Sequence record: MF158045
Source of the DNA: Shigella phage Sf22
Reading direction: 5' to 3' (one strand)
Length of the DNA stretch: 64,000 nucleotides
In this document: in pieces, positions 38,408 to 52,576 of the stretch
Position numbering within the stretch: position 1 is the stretch's first letter
How the letters are laid out: every line of letters begins with the position of its first letter
The notes under the pieces: generated by a model
The model's input: the letters and a program-made list of their open reading frames with translations, nothing else
Told to the model about the DNA's origin: nothing
The model's database searches: none
Position numbers and translations under genes: made by a program

Positions 38408-39202
38408 ATGGCAATTGTAGGTGTTCCTGGCTGGATTGGTGAATCTGCCGTGAATGAAACTGGACAGCGTTGGATGGATGCTGCGATGAGAGCAGTTCGT
38501 GTTTCAGTTCCTGGTTGGATGAGCTCAATGGCTGGGCAATCTAAAGAAGTATATTATAGCATTGGTGCTAGCAATTCTTACAATAAAGACACACTAATAA
38601 ATTATCTCAAATCTCAAGGTAGTACTCCTGTTGTTGTTACTATTACTGGTAACCTAGTTTCTTCATCTGCAAGGCAACCTTGCTTAGATTTTCCTAGCTC
38701 ATTAACTAATGCTTATGTAACGCTTATTATAAATGGCGGTGTAACAGTATATGGTCGCGGAGGACGCGGCGCGCAAGCGGGAAACCAGGCGGGTGAAGCT
38801 GGTGGTACTGCAATTAACAATGGTATAGGTACTCGTCTACGAATCACTAACAATGGAGCAATCGCTGGCGGTGGTGGTGGTGGCGGCGCCCAATCAACTG
38901 ATAATGGATGGGGAGGTAAATATGTTTCTGGCGGCGGCGGCGGACGTCCTTTCGGAGCTGGTGGTAATAATGGAGCAAAAGCTCCGGGTGCATCAGCATC
39001 TTTAACATCTCCAGGCGCAGGTGGAAAAATGTATTCCGGCGTTGGATACTACGGTGGTGACGGTGGTAATGTTGGTGAACGAGGTAAGGATGCGGTTAGA
39101 TTGAACGGCTATTCGAACTCACCTGGCGCAGCAGGTAAAGCTGTTACTGGTAACGCACCAACATGGACTAAGGTTGGTACAATATATGGTTCAAGAGTAT
39201 AA
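38408..39202 (+). CDS. 38: Receptor-recognising adhesin (T2-type gp38) with glycine-rich motifs
   Basis: 264 aa; several poly-Gly blocks (GGGGGGG, GGGGG) separating variable segments; position after 37. Confidence 0.85.
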   Translation: MAIVGVPGWIGESAVNETGQRWMDAAMRAVRVSVPGWMSSMAGQSKEVYYSIGASNSYNKDTLINYLKSQGSTPVVVTITGNLVSSSARQPCLDFPSSLTNAYVTLIINGGVTVYGRGGRGAQAGNQAGEAGGTAINNGIGTRLRITNNGAIAGGGGGGGAQSTDNGWGGKYVSGGGGGRPFGAGGNNGAKAPGASASLTSPGAGGKMYSGVGYYGGDGGNVGERGKDAVRLNGYSNSPGAAGKAVTGNAPTWTKVGTIYGSRV

Positions 39203-39234: not shown

Positions 39235-39891
39235 ATGGCAGCACCTAGAATATCATTTTCGCCCTCTGATATTCTATTTGGTGTTCTAGATCGCTTGTTC
39301 AAAGATAACGCTACCGGGAAAGTTCTTGCTTCCCGGGTAGCTGTCGTAATTCTTTTATTTATGATGGCGATTGTTTGGTATAGGGGAGATAGTTTCTTTG
39401 AGTACTATAAGCAATCAAAGTATGAAACATACAGTGAAATTATTGAAAAGGAAAGAAATGCACGCTTTGAATCTGTCGCCCTGGAACAACTCCAGATAGT
39501 TCATATATCATCTGAGGCAGACTTTAGTGCGGTGTATTCTTTCCGCCCTAAAAACTTAAACTATTTTGTTGATATTATAGCATACGAAGGAAGATTACCT
39601 TCAACAATAACTGAAAAATCACTTGGAGGATATCCTGTTGATAAAACTATGGATGAATATACAGTTCATTTAAATGGACGTCATTATTATTCTGACTCAA
39701 AATTTGCTTTTTTACCAACTAAAAAGCCTACTCCCGAAATAAACTACATGTACAGTTGTCCATATTTTAATTTGGATAATATCTATGCTGGAACGATAAC
39801 AATGTACTGGTATAGAAATGATCATATAAGTAATGACCGCCTTGAATCAATATGTGCCCAGGCGGCCAGAATATTAGGAAGGGCTAAATAA
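39235..39891 (+). CDS. t: Holin
   Basis: 218 aa, MAAPRISFSPSDILFGVLDRLFKDNATGKVLASRVAVVILLFMMAIVWYRGDSF... matches recalled T4 holin T. Confidence 0.95.
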   Translation: MAAPRISFSPSDILFGVLDRLFKDNATGKVLASRVAVVILLFMMAIVWYRGDSFFEYYKQSKYETYSEIIEKERNARFESVALEQLQIVHISSEADFSAVYSFRPKNLNYFVDIIAYEGRLPSTITEKSLGGYPVDKTMDEYTVHLNGRHYYSDSKFAFLPTKKPTPEINYMYSCPYFNLDNIYAGTITMYWYRNDHISNDRLESICAQAARILGRAK

Positions 39892-42745: not shown

Positions 42746-42895
42746 TTACTGCATGACTGTGATAACTGTCATGATAACACGTTGAATTCCGAACGCAAGA
42801 AGACCTCCTGCTACGGCTGGAACAACGCCTAAACCCGCCAGTAAAATGCTACCAGATACTAATGCCGCGCTTGTAATACCTATGAATGGACTCAT
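42746..42895 (-). CDS. Small hydrophobic protein (49 aa) between 52 and motA
   Basis: MSPFIGITSAALVSGSILLAGLGVVPAVAGGLLAFGIQRVIMTVITVMQ; below the ORF-track size cut-off; start overlaps the gene 52 stop. Confidence 0.5.
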   Translation of the reverse strand: MSPFIGITSAALVSGSILLAGLGVVPAVAGGLLAFGIQRVIMTVITVMQ

Positions 42896-44220
42896 TTGAT
42901 TTCCTCTAAATCTTTGGTGTATTCTGTAACTACATCAGTAGTTTTCCAATATTCGTTTTCTTCTTTTTTAGCTTTAGCTTCTTCTGCAAGTTTCTTTGCT
43001 TCGTCGGAAGTCATATGAAAAATATTCATTCCGACTAGTTTATCAACATAAGAAGAATACATCTCAATTTTAGAAAGTTCTTCAGTCAGTTCTTTACGAG
43101 TTTTACCCTGTACAACAATTTCACCTGAAATTACTTTCTTAATGAAATGTGCCTTGGCAAAGGCTAAACGAAATGCTGATTCAGTTTCTTTAATTTTGTT
43201 ATCAATTCGTTTTTGGACATAAGTTTTACGAACTTCAACAAAGTCTTTAATTAAATCAACTACGTTATCGTAAACTTGTAGCTTTCCTTTCTCATTAATG
43301 ACTGTAATATTTTGGGAACGACGCTCAATCAACCCGAAGTCTTTCATAATTTTTGCATGGCGTTCTTCTTCGTTATCGCTCAAAGAATATTCTTTACGGA
43401 ATTTAACTTTGAATCCAAACCCGTGCTCACCGCAAGCATCATCCCATGTAATGAAGCCTTTATCTTCAAGCGGGTCTAAGATTTTACTCACATAAGTTTC
43501 ACGATCATACTTATACGGAATCTCGGTGATATGCATTTGAGTTCGTGAAGTAAACTTATATGTTCCACGAATTTCATATTGCCCATCAATTTCAACGACT
43601 TCACCACGAAATTCTGGGAATTCTACCTTCGGTTTAGTTACTTTCTTTCCTTGAAGAGCTTGCAGTACAGCTTTCTTAACAGAAGAAACACTATGAGGAA
43701 GAATGTAAGTTGCATAACCAGTTGCAATACCGGAAACACCATTAAGAAGAACAGTAGGAATAATAGGCAAATAGAAAGCAGGCGGAATGTGTTCTTTATC
43801 TTGATGTACCGGAGCATATTCAGTATCTTTATATACGTTATAGAAATTTTTACTTACACGAGCAAAAATATAACGACTTGCCGCTGCCTTTTGGACAGTA
43901 CGAGAACCAAAGTTTCCTTGACCATCTAACAGAGGAAAGTTATTATTCCAAGTATTAGCCATCAAAGCACCTGCATCTTGTGCAGAGTTTTCGCCATGGT
44001 GATATCCAAGGTCCGCTACACCGCCTGCAATAGAAGCGAGTTTGTGAAACTTATCTTTATTTCCTCGTGCCAAATCAAGAGCTCGAGCAATAACAAATCG
44101 TTGAACTGGCTTAAATCCGTCAATCATATTTGGGATAGCACGATTTTCAACCGTGTACATAGCATAAGCCAGTGCTTCATTATCAATGATACTTTTTAAA
44201 TCGCGATTATTCAGTTGCAT
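42892..44220 (-). CDS. 52: DNA topoisomerase II medium subunit
   Basis: 442 aa, MQLNNRDLKSIIDNEALAYAMYTVENRAIP... with GyrA/ParC-like motif; matches recalled T4 gp52. Confidence 0.95.
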   Translation of the reverse strand: MQLNNRDLKSIIDNEALAYAMYTVENRAIPNMIDGFKPVQRFVIARALDLARGNKDKFHKLASIAGGVADLGYHHGENSAQDAGALMANTWNNNFPLLDGQGNFGSRTVQKAAASRYIFARVSKNFYNVYKDTEYAPVHQDKEHIPPAFYLPIIPTVLLNGVSGIATGYATYILPHSVSSVKKAVLQALQGKKVTKPKVEFPEFRGEVVEIDGQYEIRGTYKFTSRTQMHITEIPYKYDRETYVSKILDPLEDKGFITWDDACGEHGFGFKVKFRKEYSLSDNEEERHAKIMKDFGLIERRSQNITVINEKGKLQVYDNVVDLIKDFVEVRKTYVQKRIDNKIKETESAFRLAFAKAHFIKKVISGEIVVQGKTRKELTEELSKIEMYSSYVDKLVGMNIFHMTSDEAKKLAEEAKAKKEENEYWKTTDVVTEYTKDLEEIK

Positions 44221-44224
44221 AAAT

Positions 44225-44365
44225 TTACCATACTAGTGAATGTAGTGCCATAATAACATCAGAAATGAAAAGCACGACTTGAATTAATCCGAACATTACT
44301 CCATAATATAGTGCTACCAATAAAGTAGCAAGGGCTAATGAATAGCCCAAGATTTTCTTAATCAT
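44225..44365 (-). CDS. Small hydrophobic protein (46 aa)
   Basis: MIKKILGYSLALATLLVALYYGVMFGLIQVVLFISDVIMALHSLVW; hand-translated, not in ORF track. Confidence 0.4.
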   Translation of the reverse strand: MIKKILGYSLALATLLVALYYGVMFGLIQVVLFISDVIMALHSLVW

Positions 44366-44516
44366 TAGTAGATAACAACACAAATGTTAAATATGCACAC
44401 ATACCCTGGGCTAAAGCTTGTGAAAACACACTGCTAGCATCGATACAGATAGTTAAAACACATGCTACTATCCAACAAATAAATGAAATAACTCCTAATA
44501 ATTTTGCGATATTCAT
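44358..44516 (-). CDS. Small membrane protein (52 aa; start moved to MNIAKLLG)
   Basis: GAGGAG RBS upstream of the internal ATG; paralogous to the next ORF. Confidence 0.5.
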   Translation of the reverse strand: MNIAKLLGVISFICWIVACVLTICIDASSVFSQALAQGMCAYLTFVLLSTND

Positions 44517-44526
44517 AATATTCTCC

Positions 44527-44682
44527 TCAACTATTTTTAGAACCAATGTACGCGAATAATGATAAAATCGCTAATACACCCTGAGCTGATGCTTGCAAAA
44601 ATACTGAAGTTTCTCCAGTTATTACTGTTCCGATGCATAAAAAGAACCAACAGAAAAAGGCTATACCGTGAACAAATTTCAT
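44527..44682 (-). CDS. Small membrane protein (51 aa), ac-like by position and size
   Basis: MKFVHGIAFFCWFFLCIGTVITGETSVFLQASAQGVLAILSLFAYIGSKNS; shares an S[VS]F.QA.AQG motif with the preceding ORF. Confidence 0.5.
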   Translation of the reverse strand: MKFVHGIAFFCWFFLCIGTVITGETSVFLQASAQGVLAILSLFAYIGSKNS

Positions 44683-44689
44683 ATTTTCC

Positions 44690-44770
44690 TCACTGGCGTC
44701 CGAAGACGCCTTTGGTTTTAAGATTGTTACGATAAAACTGCATCACATGTTCGTTATGGAAATTACTCAT
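44690..44770 (-). CDS. stp: Stp peptide (26 aa), activator of the host PrrC anticodon nuclease
   Basis: Hand-translated [26 protein letters not shown] matches recalled T4 Stp; lies between ndd and the ac-like ORF. Confidence 0.8.
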
Positions 44771-45213
44771 TAATATGCCTGCAAAACAAATTTAAAGTTA
44801 TCAGCCAACATACGGTTCATTTCTTCAAGTGTTTGATACTCAGAATGATGATTACGAGTAAACGCTAAAGCTAACTGACCTTTTCCAAATCCCGTCGTCA
44901 GAGGTTTCATCTTAGAAGCAGGCAGATAAAACACCGTGTATACCATATTATTATTTGCAATAGTACGCGCAAGTTGAGACCGTCGTTGACGAATATGACT
45001 TAAAACCGCGCTGAATCCTTGCTTAGAACGCTGATTACCTACATAAAATCGTGCAGATACACATGAACCATCGAATTCACTTACTAAAAAGTAAAATCCA
45101 GGTTTAGACAAAATGTCTTTGTGTGGAGTTCCCAAAAACCACTCACCGCCCTTGATTGTACCAATAACAGTAGCGCCTGCGTTGTTCAGATCAGTAACAG
45201 CCATATATTTCAT
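44770..45213 (-). CDS. ndd: Nucleoid disruption protein
   Basis: Start set at [45 protein letters not shown]...; matches recalled T4 Ndd. Confidence 0.9.
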
Positions 45214-45273
45214 TTTAATTTCCTCTAAATTATTTTCTACTCCAAGGCCGCATGAATACATACGGCCGATAAA

Positions 45274-45489
45274 TTAATCGTCGCAGTCGACGCTCAATTC
45301 CCAAAACTCTTCTACAGTATAAGTTTCAGTATCATTTTCAATACAGAAACGTTCATTACTGTTATTTGCTAAAGTAGCGTTAACTGTCGGTTTCTCGCTA
45401 GTGCTCTTAAGAGGTGAAATACGAATTAACTGATCACCGTTATCTAAACAAAAAATTTCACCAACTTTTACATCTTTAAAACTTTTCAT
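45274..45489 (-). CDS. Hypothetical protein (71 aa)
   Basis: ORF track. Confidence 0.5.
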   Translation of the reverse strand: MKSFKDVKVGEIFCLDNGDQLIRISPLKSTSEKPTVNATLANNSNERFCIENDTETYTVEEFWELSVDCDD

Positions 45490-45604: not shown

Positions 45605-45823
45605 TCATTTTACACCATTCCAAATTGTTTCAACTACGGATTTTAAACCATTTTGATGAATATCCATTCCGACTACCGCCATCAAATAGATTCCAACTAC
45701 AACTGAACCTAAGGCAAAAATCAGCATGAAAATGAATAAAGCCGGAAAAATATTATCGAAAAACCATTCAATAAATGTAAAAGCACTACGTTTACGCTTC
45801 ATATTTTCCTCACATAAATCCAA
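45605..45823 (-). CDS. Hypothetical membrane protein (72 aa)
   Basis: ORF track; two predicted hydrophobic helices. Confidence 0.5.
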   Translation of the reverse strand: MDLCEENMKRKRSAFTFIEWFFDNIFPALFIFMLIFALGSVVVGIYLMAVVGMDIHQNGLKSVVETIWNGVK

Positions 45824-50755: not shown

Positions 50756-52576
50756 CTACTGGCTCATCCATTCTTTACGAAGGTCAGCATTATCTCCCAT
50801 GAGCATTTCAAAAAGCTCTTTCCAATTCTCAGGAAGTTTAACAACATCATATACTGGATTTTGAATCATCTCACGATATTCAGATTTTTCCAAAGAGCCA
50901 AGTCCCTTAATATAACGGATGCTATGTTTAGGTAGAGCATCTTTGGCACTCTCATATTCAGCGACTGTATAAAACCATTCTTGTTTTTTACCGACCTGAG
51001 CGATGATTACAGGAGTTTTGACAAAGCGAATTCGTCCTTGCTCAAACAATTCTGGCCAATTACTAAAAAATCCGAGCAGAGAAGGATAAATGCTTCCTAA
51101 ACCATCATGGTCAGCATCAGTCATAATAGCAATATTATGATAATTCAAGTTTTCAGCTTTTTCACCGAGAACTAGACCAGTGATTGCGCAAATATCAAAT
51201 AATTCTTTGTTTTTAAGCATATCTGCATAAGACATACCCCAACTGTTGAGAACTTTACCACGCAATGGATAACCACCGTGAAGTTCTTTATCACGAACAT
51301 CAATAAGATATCCGATAGCCGAATCACCCTCAGTCAAGAAAAGAGTAGTATCAGCATCTTTACCGCAAAGATTCGCTTTGATATGTTTATGAACTTTAGC
51401 TTTAGAAGCCTTTTTAGCTGCTTTAGTTTCAGCTGCTTTTTCTGCTGCCAATTTACGGGCCAAGGCAGCTTCAATAATCGGCATTAAAATTGCTTCATTA
51501 TTTAGAATAGCGCGTGAAATCTTTTTAGCATCAAGCTGAATATGACTACGAATTTCGCCAAATGGAGAAGTCAAACGCTCTTTAGTTTGAGAATCAAATC
51601 GCATGTTTTTCATATCACGGACAAACATAACGATAGTCAAACATTCTTTGACACGTGCTTTAGTTACATCAATTTTGAACTTACGTTTGATTTGTGGAAT
51701 AAGGTCTTCACAAATATCATCCATAACACAGTCAATGTGATGGCCACCATTCTTAGTGTGAATGTTATTCACATAAGTTAATTGGCGAAATCCATCCGGT
51801 GAACGACCAACCGCAATAGAACAATTTTCTTGTTCTTGAACAATAGCATGTTCATCATACTGTCGTGCATATTTCTTAAAATTGCCCTGAACCTTTTTAC
51901 CATTAAAGGTAAATTGAATATCAGGATAAACTACTGCAAGTGTCTGGAGACGATCCAGTGTAATGTCAAGATAAACTTGGGACAGCTCATTAGTTTCAAA
52001 TGACATAAAATCTGGAATGAAAGTAACACGAGTTCCTTTCCATTTTCCAGGAATAGTTTCCCAGGATTTATTTTCCATGCCATTTGAACAACGAACTACA
52101 ATATTATTTTGACCATCGCCAGTTTCACCGACAAACATCACAGAAAAAATGTTAGTTAAACTAGAACCAACACCATTCATACCACCGGTGACACGTTCTT
52201 TATCATCACCAAAGTTACCACCCGCTTTTGGAATAGTCCAAGCAGCAACTGGACCAGGAATTTCTTCACCGGTAGGTGTTTTAACCATCGCTTGTGGAAT
52301 ACCACGACCGTTATCTTCAACTGTTACTTGATTGTTTTTGATAGTAACATTAATTTTATTTGCGAATTTAAACTTAGTACGAATACCTTCATCTACTGAG
52401 TTATCGATAATTTCATCAATAAGCTTAACAAGACCAGGTACATACTGAACACTTTCCCATTTACCAAACAGAAAGCGCTCATGCATTTCATTAGCAGAAG
52501 AGCCAATATACATGCCGCTACGCTTTTTGATATGTTCAATATCGCTCAGAATTTTAATTTCATTCTTAATCATCAC
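50756..52576 (-). CDS. 39: DNA topoisomerase II large (ATPase) subunit, single uninterrupted ORF
   Basis: 606 aa GyrB-like protein; continuous, so it covers the regions that T4 splits into genes 39 and 60. Confidence 0.93.
   Translation of the reverse strand: MMIKNEIKILSDIEHIKKRSGMYIGSSANEMHERFLFGKWESVQYVPGLVKLIDEIIDNSVDEGIRTKFKFANKINVTIKNNQVTVEDNGRGIPQAMVKTPTGEEIPGPVAAWTIPKAGGNFGDDKERVTGGMNGVGSSLTNIFSVMFVGETGDGQNNIVVRCSNGMENKSWETIPGKWKGTRVTFIPDFMSFETNELSQVYLDITLDRLQTLAVVYPDIQFTFNGKKVQGNFKKYARQYDEHAIVQEQENCSIAVGRSPDGFRQLTYVNNIHTKNGGHHIDCVMDDICEDLIPQIKRKFKIDVTKARVKECLTIVMFVRDMKNMRFDSQTKERLTSPFGEIRSHIQLDAKKISRAILNNEAILMPIIEAALARKLAAEKAAETKAAKKASKAKVHKHIKANLCGKDADTTLFLTEGDSAIGYLIDVRDKELHGGYPLRGKVLNSWGMSYADMLKNKELFDICAITGLVLGEKAENLNYHNIAIMTDADHDGLGSIYPSLLGFFSNWPELFEQGRIRFVKTPVIIAQVGKKQEWFYTVAEYESAKDALPKHSIRYIKGLGSLEKSEYREMIQNPVYDVVKLPENWKELFEMLMGDNADLRKEWMSQ

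What the first reader, a model, noticed from the sequence alone, without database searches (positions are those of the whole stretch)
44225..44682. Three tandem small hydrophobic ORFs, two of them paralogous, between 52 and stp
ORFs of 46, 52 and 51 aa each encode one or two transmembrane helices. The 52- and 51-aa products share an S[VS]F.QA.AQG motif and similar architecture. The T4 ac gene maps in this interval; a duplicated small membrane protein could act as a lysis or transport modulator or a superinfection-exclusion factor.
Basis: partly seen in the sequence, partly recalled or inferred. Interest (0 to 1): 0.35.

Follow-up and report, generated by a model that had tools for sequence, protein, structure and literature searches.

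The report
T4 ac genes and 52.1
The three small membrane ORFs are known T4-type phage genes: 52.1, the acridine-sensitivity gene ac, and a second, divergent ac gene that T4 lacks. The finding is real but mostly ordinary.

Summary
The window is a Tequatrovirus, and all three ORFs lie on the minus strand between gene 52 and stp.

- **ORF1 (44225-44365, 46 aa)** is gp52.1 (Pfam DUF7396).
- **ORF2 (44358-44516, 52 aa)** is the ortholog of T4 Ac, with one extra Thr.
- **ORF3 (44527-44682, 51 aa)** is a second Ac-family gene ("type B"). It is absent from T4. Related type-B genes are the only ac gene in RB32, RB68 and wV7, and type-B-like ac genes occur in Mosigvirus and Jiaodavirus.

ORF2 and ORF3 are true homologs (43% identity, E 6e-10, both phrog_2501). 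ORF3 keeps every family-invariant residue, has its own ribosome-binding site, and shows dN/dS of about 0.2.

The B-A tandem occurs in 49 of about 540 related GenBank phage records, often annotated "acridine resistance (x2)". Its junction is chimeric: a B-allele body joined at GGTTCTAAAAAT to a T2/YUEEL01-type stp tail, spacer and A allele. This suggests unequal crossover between phages carrying different alleles, not local duplication.

Function is inferred from the literature. Ac is an early, two-helix inner-membrane protein that makes infected cells accumulate acridines. Blocking AcrAB-TolC efflux has been proposed but not shown. Lysis or superinfection-exclusion roles have no support.

The parts
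44225..44365 (-). ORF1 = gene 52.1, 46 aa. It is a very hydrophobic small membrane protein (DUF7396). Its ATG overlaps the stop of ORF2 by 8 nt, which indicates translational coupling.
   Evidence: Pfam DUF7396 at 3.5e-23, 81.9 bits against a cutoff of 27. phrog_3595 at 1.2e-25. One residue differs from T4 gp52.1. tblastn finds it in 811 phage records. The same stop/start overlap with ac is seen in other phages and genera.
44358..44516 (-). ORF2 = ac, type A. It is the ortholog of T4 Ac, 52 aa, with one extra Thr before the C-terminal ND.
   Evidence: The DNA is nearly identical to T4 ac apart from a 3-nt insertion. phrog_2501 at 3.7e-25. Type A is present in 461 phage records. The +Thr variant is reported as still acridine-sensitive in phage PP01.
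44517..44528 (-). ORF3-ORF2 spacer with the Shine-Dalgarno sequence GAGGAG (44523-44528, overlapping the ORF3 stop) and the 6-nt spacer AATATT.
   Evidence: Read directly from the sequence. It is identical to the stp-ac spacer of phage YUEEL01. It is unpaired in the RNA fold.
44527..44682 (-). ORF3 = a second ac-family gene, type B, 51 aa. It is absent from T4, where a 166-nt block is missing.
   Evidence: phrog_2501 at 4.9e-26. Aligned single-copy type-B ac genes: RB68 76%, RB32 71%, ECO78 82%, and wV7 86% over the first 36 residues. dN/dS against those alleles is 0.17-0.68, mostly about 0.2. All family-invariant residues are kept. The protein is 100% identical in many tandem-bearing phages.
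44533..44544 (-). Recombination junction GGTTCTAAAAAT (coding strand). Upstream is the type-B allele body. From this point on, the sequence follows a T2/YUEEL01-type stp tail, spacer and type-A allele.
   Evidence: From the junction, all 445 nt are 99.1% identical to YUEEL01, whereas T4 aligns only from position 20. The upstream part aligns to type-B phages up to the junction. Single-copy B alleles read GGTTCAAAAAATGATTAAG at this position. T2 and YUEEL01 match the junction probe up to exactly 44544.
44683..44691 (-). Shine-Dalgarno GAGG (44688-44691, overlapping the stp stop codon) and a 5-nt spacer before the ORF3 ATG.
   Evidence: Read directly from the sequence. The same context precedes ac in T4, RB32 and RB68.
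44690..44770 (-). stp (26 aa, T4-type allele), the upstream neighbour. Its 3' end carries a C(UUCG)G hairpin at 44695-44710.
   Evidence: The translation is identical to T4 Stp. The hairpin folds at -12.2 kcal/mol.

Best explanation
The interval holds three real, early-transcribed phage genes for small inner-membrane proteins: 52.1, ac (type A, the T4 ortholog) and a second ac (type B).

**Structure (inferred).** Ac proteins are helical hairpins of about 50 aa. Charge placement suggests both ends lie in the cytoplasm, with the acidic loop in the periplasm. Helix 2 carries the family-invariant polar face V-F-x-Q-A-x-x-Q-G.

**Function (from published T4 work).** Ac makes the infected or expressing cell accumulate acridines. 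Loss of ac, or the G38R change in the QG motif, makes the phage acridine-resistant.

**Mechanism (inferred, about 40% likely).** The polar face binds a host inner-membrane partner, most plausibly the AcrB pump of AcrAB-TolC, and blocks efflux.

**Role of 52.1 (inferred).** gp52.1 is translationally coupled to ac in every genus examined, so it probably acts with Ac.

**Origin of the tandem (inferred from the junction).** It arose by unequal crossover at a 12-of-13-nt microhomology, between a genome carrying stp(T4-type)-acB-52.1 and one carrying stp(T2-type)-acA-52.1. The phage therefore makes two isoforms that are only 43% identical.
For: **Identity**
- The window is 99.3% identical to Tequatrovirus genomes.
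- The T4 annotation and alignment show ORF1 = 52.1 and ORF2 = ac, with ORF3 a 166-nt block that T4 lacks.

**ORF3 is functional**
- It has its own GAGG ribosome-binding site.
- dN/dS is about 0.2.
- The invariant residues W12, T19, V27, Q30, Q34 and G35 are kept.
- The protein is identical in many tandem-bearing records.
- Type-B or type-B-like genes are the sole ac gene in RB32, RB68, wV7, ECO78, Yersinia phage P8, a Mosigvirus and Jiaodavirus phages.

**Structure:** two helices.

**Expression:** T4 52.1, ac and stp are classed as early transcripts.

**Function:** a preprint shows that T4 delta-ac and the G38R mutant are acriflavine-resistant. It also shows that Ac expression alone sensitises E. 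coli about 1000-fold to acriflavine and also to ampicillin. The authors propose a block of AcrAB-TolC.

**Coupling:** ac and 52.1 have overlapping stop and start codons in Tequatrovirus, Jiaodavirus, Mosigvirus and Yersinia phage P8.

**Origin:** the junction is chimeric. Flanks are 94-100% identical between phages, against 77-87% among B alleles and 52-56% between A and B.
Against: - No direct evidence links Ac to AcrB. The preprint has no binding, efflux or delta-acrB epistasis data.
- T4 is resistant to daunorubicin and doxorubicin. From general knowledge these anthracyclines are also AcrAB-TolC substrates, so a general efflux block is not obviously consistent with this.
- Ac shows no detectable similarity to AcrZ or to any solved structure.
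- No acridine phenotype has been measured for a type-B Ac or for a tandem phage.
- Ac and gp52.1 were not detected in the T4 proteome, which is expected for tiny membrane proteins.
- The direction of the recombination event is not proven. A deletion in a tandem ancestor could instead have produced the T2-type stp tail.
- One lineage (BCH953P4) matches ORF3 in two pieces over 152 nt, which may be a frameshift.
Confidence: 0.75

Rival explanations
1. Ac proteins raise inward permeability to acridines, for example by forming an oligomeric leak or altering the membrane. They do not block an efflux pump. This is the older permeability model.
For: - The preprint summarises the older T2/T4 work as showing more acridine uptake in wild-type-infected cells.
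- Two invariant Gln residues and a Gly on one helix face would also suit self-association.
- T4 is not sensitised to anthracyclines, which argues against a general efflux block.
Against: - Ac expression also sensitises cells to ampicillin. The authors attribute this to loss of efflux.
- Expression without drug costs little viability, which argues against a general leak.
- No channel-like family or structural match was found.
Confidence: 0.3
2. ORF3 is a functionless by-product of a recombination accident and is on its way to becoming a pseudogene. Only ORF2 matters.
For: - T4 and most relatives manage with one ac gene: about 490 of 542 records lack the tandem.
- ORF3 has lost the ancestral stop/start coupling to 52.1.
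- BCH953P4 may carry a frameshift.
Against: - The frame is intact and the protein is identical or nearly identical in 46 records.
- dN/dS is about 0.2 against single-copy B alleles.
- All invariant residues are retained, including the Gly equivalent to T4 G38.
- It has a strong ribosome-binding site.
- A more diverged tandem-type variant, P0003, keeps the frame and the GSKNS tail.
Confidence: 0.1
3. The pair arose by tandem duplication in place followed by divergence. Single-copy phages such as T4 and RB32 then lost one copy or the other.
For: - The stp-ORF3 and ORF3-ORF2 junctions share a GAGGA(A/G)AATAT..ATGAA repeat that could mediate deletion of B to give the T4 state.
- An intermediate-looking family member exists, P0009.
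Against: - The tail of ORF3 plus the spacer is identical to a T2/YUEEL01-type stp tail and spacer, and the downstream 445 nt are 99.1% identical to YUEEL01. A single crossover explains this. The duplication model needs extra substitutions.
- Every locus outside the tandem lineage that was examined has exactly one Ac-family copy.
- ORF2 is about 98-99% identical to single-copy A alleles, whereas the ORF3 body is only 85-89% identical to any sampled B allele.
Confidence: 0.15
4. The three proteins are lysis-timing or superinfection-exclusion factors.
For: They are small membrane proteins made early, like T4 Imm, Sp and RI. This is general knowledge only.
Against: - They match no holin, antiholin, spanin or defence-related family.
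- The published Ac phenotype concerns acridine accumulation, and titres without the drug are unaffected.
- A 218-aa ORF of the size and position of T4 holin t lies elsewhere in the window, at 39235-39891.
Confidence: 0.05

Closest known systems
T4 Ac (gene ac, NP_049877, 51 aa; phrog_2501; Pfam PF26944 is recorded on some homologs)
   Same: ORF2 is this protein plus one Thr. ORF3 belongs to the same family: same length, two-helix architecture, invariant W...T...VFxQAxxQG residues, and the same position between stp and 52.1.
   Different: ORF3 is only 43% identical to T4 Ac over 40 aligned residues. It is uncoupled from 52.1 and ends in KNS instead of ND. T4 has no second copy.
The 'ac' genes of RB32, RB68 and wV7 (type B), and the type-B-like ac genes of Mosigvirus and Jiaodavirus
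   Same: ORF3 shares 71-86% identity with the Tequatrovirus type-B alleles and carries the same TGETSVFLQA core. This type is the widespread one across genera.
   Different: In those phages it is the only ac gene, and its stop overlaps the 52.1 start codon. Here it sits upstream of a type-A copy and carries a tail that matches a T2-type stp.
T4 gp52.1 (NP_049876; Pfam DUF7396)
   Same: ORF1 differs from it by one residue and has the same 8-nt overlap with ac.
   Different: Nothing of note. No function is known.
E. coli AcrZ, a 49-aa accessory protein that binds AcrB
   Same: This is a functional analogy only: a membrane protein of about 50 aa proposed to act on the AcrAB-TolC pump.
   Different: No sequence or profile similarity was found. 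From general knowledge, AcrZ has one transmembrane helix and tunes the pump's substrate range. Ac has two helices and is proposed to inhibit the pump. Binding of Ac to AcrB is untested.

Membership tests
Ac family (phrog_2501) | Significant profile match over the full length | tested here: met
   ORF2 scores 3.7e-25 and ORF3 scores 4.9e-26 against phrog_2501, each covering positions 1-50 of 50.
Ac family (phrog_2501) | 47-52 aa, with two hydrophobic helices joined by a short acidic loop | tested here: met
   Hydropathy profiles. The AlphaFold2 model of ORF3 has helices at 2-22 and 27-50. The preprint's ESMFold model of T4 Ac gives the same fold.
Ac family (phrog_2501) | Invariant residues W, T, V, Q, Q and G, including the Gly whose G38R change abolishes function in T4 | tested here: met
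   All are present in ORF2 and ORF3 in the 13-sequence alignment. The G38R phenotype comes from the preprint.
Ac family (phrog_2501) | Position between stp (or ndd) and 52.1/52, on the same strand | tested here: met
Ac family (phrog_2501) | Confers acridine sensitivity on the infected or expressing cell | not testable with these tools
   This has been shown for T4 Ac and reported for the +Thr variant. It has never been tested for a type-B protein such as ORF3.
gp52.1 / DUF7396 | Pfam match above the gathering score, and a start codon overlapping the ac stop | tested here: met
   81.9 bits against a cutoff of 27. The ATGATTAA overlap is visible in the sequence.
AcrZ-like small accessory proteins of RND pumps | Sequence or profile similarity to AcrZ | tested here: not met
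   No AcrZ match in Pfam at E up to 1. No PDB sequence match at E up to 10 for 52.1 or for the Ac profile. No Foldseek match.
AcrZ-like small accessory proteins of RND pumps | Physical binding to AcrB | not testable with these tools
Phage lysis or superinfection-exclusion proteins (holin, antiholin, Imm, Sp) | Family match or a lysis/exclusion phenotype | tested here: not met
   No such families were found in Pfam, PHROGs, NCBIfam or PADLOC. The phenotype itself cannot be tested here.

The most novel reading that the evidence does not exclude
The ac locus is a balanced, fast-diverging allele cassette, and the tandem phages have fixed two isoforms in cis to widen their target range. For example, type A and type B might each disable a different host RND pump or a different host variant, acting together with gp52.1 as a phage-encoded small-protein inhibitor of multidrug efflux. 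This would be the first natural protein inhibitor system of AcrB-type pumps, and the tandem phages would be the natural test case.
Probability: 0.15. Interest if true: 0.6.

Novelty: already known. Interest (0 to 1): 0.22.

Why it matters
The practical gain is correct labelling. The three ORFs are 52.1, ac and a second ac-family gene, and they are not unknown lysis or exclusion factors.

Two smaller points may interest T4 specialists:
- The well-studied T4 Ac belongs to a type (A) found here only in Tequatrovirus-like records. The widespread form across genera is type B-like.
- A subset of phages, including the publicly available BASEL phage Bas41, carries both types in tandem. These are ready-made material for asking what Ac really targets and whether the two types are redundant.

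If the efflux-inhibition hypothesis holds, Ac proteins would be natural peptide inhibitors of a clinically important multidrug pump.

Tried and rejected
- **Pfam** gave no hit for either Ac protein, although PF26944 is recorded on some database homologs, so the local copy seems to lack it.
- **NCBIfam and PADLOC** gave nothing meaningful.
- **PDB sequence searches** with 52.1 and with the Ac profile gave only chance-level hits at E about 1.
- **Foldseek** of the ORF3 model against PDB gave no match.
- **Rfam** on 43800-45400 gave no match.
- **The word-indexed protein search** returned only 7 clusters. The exhaustive profile search of 1.84 billion representatives added only a few more proteins of about 50 aa plus two long chance hits. 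No bacterial or distant relatives exist to inform function.
- **The IMG/VR scan** gave only 7 loci, all single-copy.
- **The 1974 genetics paper (PMC1213221)** is not held.
- **A literature search for phage inhibitors of AcrB** found nothing beyond the 2025 preprint.
- **The antisense ORF at 44559-44735 (+)** was considered and dismissed. It lies opposite conserved coding sequence and has no support.
- **An AcrZ-mimic idea for gp52.1** was considered and dropped for lack of any detectable similarity.

Full report
**What is in the sequence**

The window is a T4-like phage (Tequatrovirus). The interval 44100-44800 is 99.3% identical to Shigella phage sb3, Escherichia phage ECML-134 and Shigella phage pSs-1.

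All genes here run on the minus strand. The order is motA, motA.1, gene 52 (42892-44220), the three ORFs, stp (44690-44770, identical to the 26-aa T4 Stp) and ndd.

Using the ATG starts that match annotated relatives, the ORFs are:
- ORF1: 44225-44365, 46 aa.
- ORF2: 44358-44516, 52 aa.
- ORF3: 44527-44682, 51 aa.

The mechanical ORF list merely extends two of them to upstream TTG codons.

ORF3 and ORF2 each have a GAGG or GAGGAG ribosome-binding site 5-6 nt upstream of the ATG. ORF1 has none, but its ATG sits inside the last codons of ORF2 (ATGATTAA), the classic layout for translational coupling.

An open stretch of about 50 codons has only a 2-3% chance at this base composition, and shuffled sequence yields about 0.55 such ATG-ORFs per kb per strand. 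Three ORFs tiling 458 nt is therefore not chance. Conservation settles the question independently.

**Identity**

T4 has 52.1 (46 aa) and ac (51 aa) between gene 52 and stp.
- ORF1 differs from T4 gp52.1 at one residue. It matches Pfam DUF7396 (3.5e-23) and phrog_3595.
- ORF2 is T4 Ac with one extra Thr codon.
- ORF3 corresponds to a 166-nt block, the gene plus a 10-nt spacer, that T4 simply lacks.

ORF2 and ORF3 are homologs. BLASTP gives 17/40 identities at E 6e-10, and both hit phrog_2501 at about 1e-25.

**Two allelic types of ac**

In RB68, RB32, wV7 and ECO78 the single ac gene between stp and 52.1 is not T4-like. It resembles ORF3, at 76%, 71% and 82% identity for RB68, RB32 and ECO78, and 86% over the first 36 residues for wV7. 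I call the T4 form type A and this form type B.

Between phages the flanks are 94-100% identical. The cassette is only 77-87% identical among B alleles and 52-56% identical between A and B.

B-like proteins with the core TGETSV(F/I)xQA are also the sole ac gene in a Yersinia phage, in Mosigvirus and in Jiaodavirus. In each case the gene is immediately followed by 52.1 with overlapping stop and start codons.

Type A was found in 461 phage records, all apparently Tequatrovirus-like. Type B-like genes are the widespread form, so type A is probably derived.

An exhaustive profile search of 1.84 billion representative proteins found only six clusters of proteins 48-52 aa long. The family is therefore confined to these phages.

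**Is ORF3 a working gene?**

- It has its own ribosome-binding site.
- It is identical or nearly identical in 46 records.
- It keeps every residue that is invariant across the family: W12, T19, V27, Q30, Q34 and G35. G35 corresponds to T4 G38, and a G38R change abolishes Ac function.
- dN/dS against single-copy B alleles is 0.17-0.68, mostly about 0.2. The counts are small but consistent.
- One lineage (BCH953P4) may carry a frameshift. I did not follow this up.

**How the tandem arose**

A 101-nt probe across the ORF3/ORF2 junction is covered in full by 49 records. This matches the 49 of 542 records that cover the whole interval.

Phages T2 and YUEEL01 match that probe up to exactly position 44544. 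They carry a different stp allele whose tail and stp-ac spacer read GGTTCTAAAAATAGTTGAGGAGAATATTATG. This string is identical to the end of ORF3 plus the ORF3-ORF2 spacer in the window.

From that point, all 445 nt (tail, spacer, ORF2, 52.1 and the start of gene 52) are 99.1% identical to YUEEL01. Upstream of it, the window follows type-B phages. Single-copy B alleles read GGTTCAAAAAATGATTAAG at the corresponding place.

The simplest account is one unequal crossover at this 12-of-13-nt microhomology, between a genome carrying stp(T4-type)-acB-52.1 and a genome carrying stp(T2-type)-acA-52.1. The reverse event, in which a deletion in a tandem ancestor created the T2-type stp tail, needs additional substitutions but is not excluded.

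Every locus examined outside this lineage has exactly one Ac-family ORF.

**Structure and likely mechanism**

Hydropathy and an AlphaFold2 model (mean pLDDT 75.8) give a helical hairpin: helix 2-22, loop TGET, helix 27-50. Lys residues near both ends and an acidic loop suggest that both termini lie in the cytoplasm. This is an inference.

The invariant Q30, Q34 and G35 lie on one face of helix 2, which is a plausible helix-helix contact surface. This is also an inference.

T4 52.1, ac and stp are classed as early transcripts. The proteins were not seen by mass spectrometry.

A 2025 preprint reports the following:
- T4 delta-ac and point mutants plate about 10^4-fold better on acriflavine.
- Ac expression alone sensitises E. 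coli about 1000-fold to acriflavine, and also to ampicillin.
- The +Thr variant, which is the ORF2 form, remains sensitive.

The authors propose that Ac blocks AcrAB-TolC, but they show no binding, efflux or epistasis data. A 2026 PNAS paper repeats this as an assumption. It also reports that T4 resists daunorubicin and doxorubicin. That fits poorly with a general efflux block, unless T4 is intrinsically insensitive to those drugs.

I therefore put efflux inhibition at about 40% and a permeability-type mechanism at about 30%. The strict ac-52.1 coupling suggests that the two proteins work together, which is an inference.

**Comparison with known systems**

No similarity to AcrZ or to any solved structure, defence family or RNA family was found. 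Membership of the Ac family and of DUF7396 is met on every testable criterion. The functional criterion is untestable here for ORF3.

**Verdict**

The genes are known and annotated, several GenBank records already label the pair "acridine resistance (x2)", and the suggested lysis or exclusion roles are unsupported.

The modest additions from this analysis are:
- the A/B allele picture;
- the recombinant origin of the tandem;
- the pointer to tandem phages as test material for the open question of what Ac does for the phage.

Noticed in passing
window 45626-45823 (-): A contiguous 65-aa membrane ORF (MKRKRSAFTFIEWFF...) with a GAGGAAAATATG start context corresponds to T4 ndd.2a plus ndd.3. The T4 reference has a 1-nt deletion just after the ATG. 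T4's two annotated mini-ORFs therefore look like a frameshifted version of one gene.
   Followed up: partly
window 44695-44710 (-): A C(UUCG)G tetraloop hairpin (GGCGUCUUCGGACGCC, -12.2 kcal/mol) lies inside the 3' end of stp, just upstream of the ORF3 ribosome-binding site. The T2/YUEEL01-type stp tail lacks it.
   Followed up: partly
L012 (phage T2, MH751506), locus positions 392-547: This T2 record carries a nonsense codon (TCA to TAA) early in ac, which leaves a 13-aa annotated 'ac'. This sequenced stock may therefore lack functional Ac.
   Followed up: partly
L013 (YUEEL01) and L012 (T2), stp: stp has a second allele with a different C-terminus...NNLKNFGILGSKNS in YUEEL01 and ...GILGFKK in T2, against ...[12 protein letters not shown] in T4. 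Whether this changes activation of the host PrrC nuclease is unknown.
   Followed up: no
window 50756-52576 (-): This is a 606-aa ORF. By position and size it looks like an unsplit topoisomerase large subunit, equivalent to T4 genes 39 and 60 joined. If so, it lacks the T4 split and the gene 60 translational bypass. This reading comes from the ORF list and general knowledge only.
   Followed up: no
window 38408-39202 (+): A 264-aa ORF follows the long tail-fibre gene. It is much longer than T4 gp38 (183 aa), which suggests a T2-type gp38 adhesin instead of the T4-type assembly chaperone.
   Followed up: no
window 44303-44331 (-), inside 52.1: A promoter-like site, TTGCTA-17 nt-TATTAT, lies on the coding strand upstream of gene 52. 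It also resembles a MotA-box middle promoter. It could give gene 52 its own transcript.
   Followed up: no
L008/L009 (Jiaodavirus), locus positions 1337-1510: In Klebsiella Jiaodavirus phages the position of stp, between ndd and ac, is occupied by an unrelated two-segment hydrophobic ORF of 51-57 aa (MGYVFLMALMICSGTF...).
   Followed up: no
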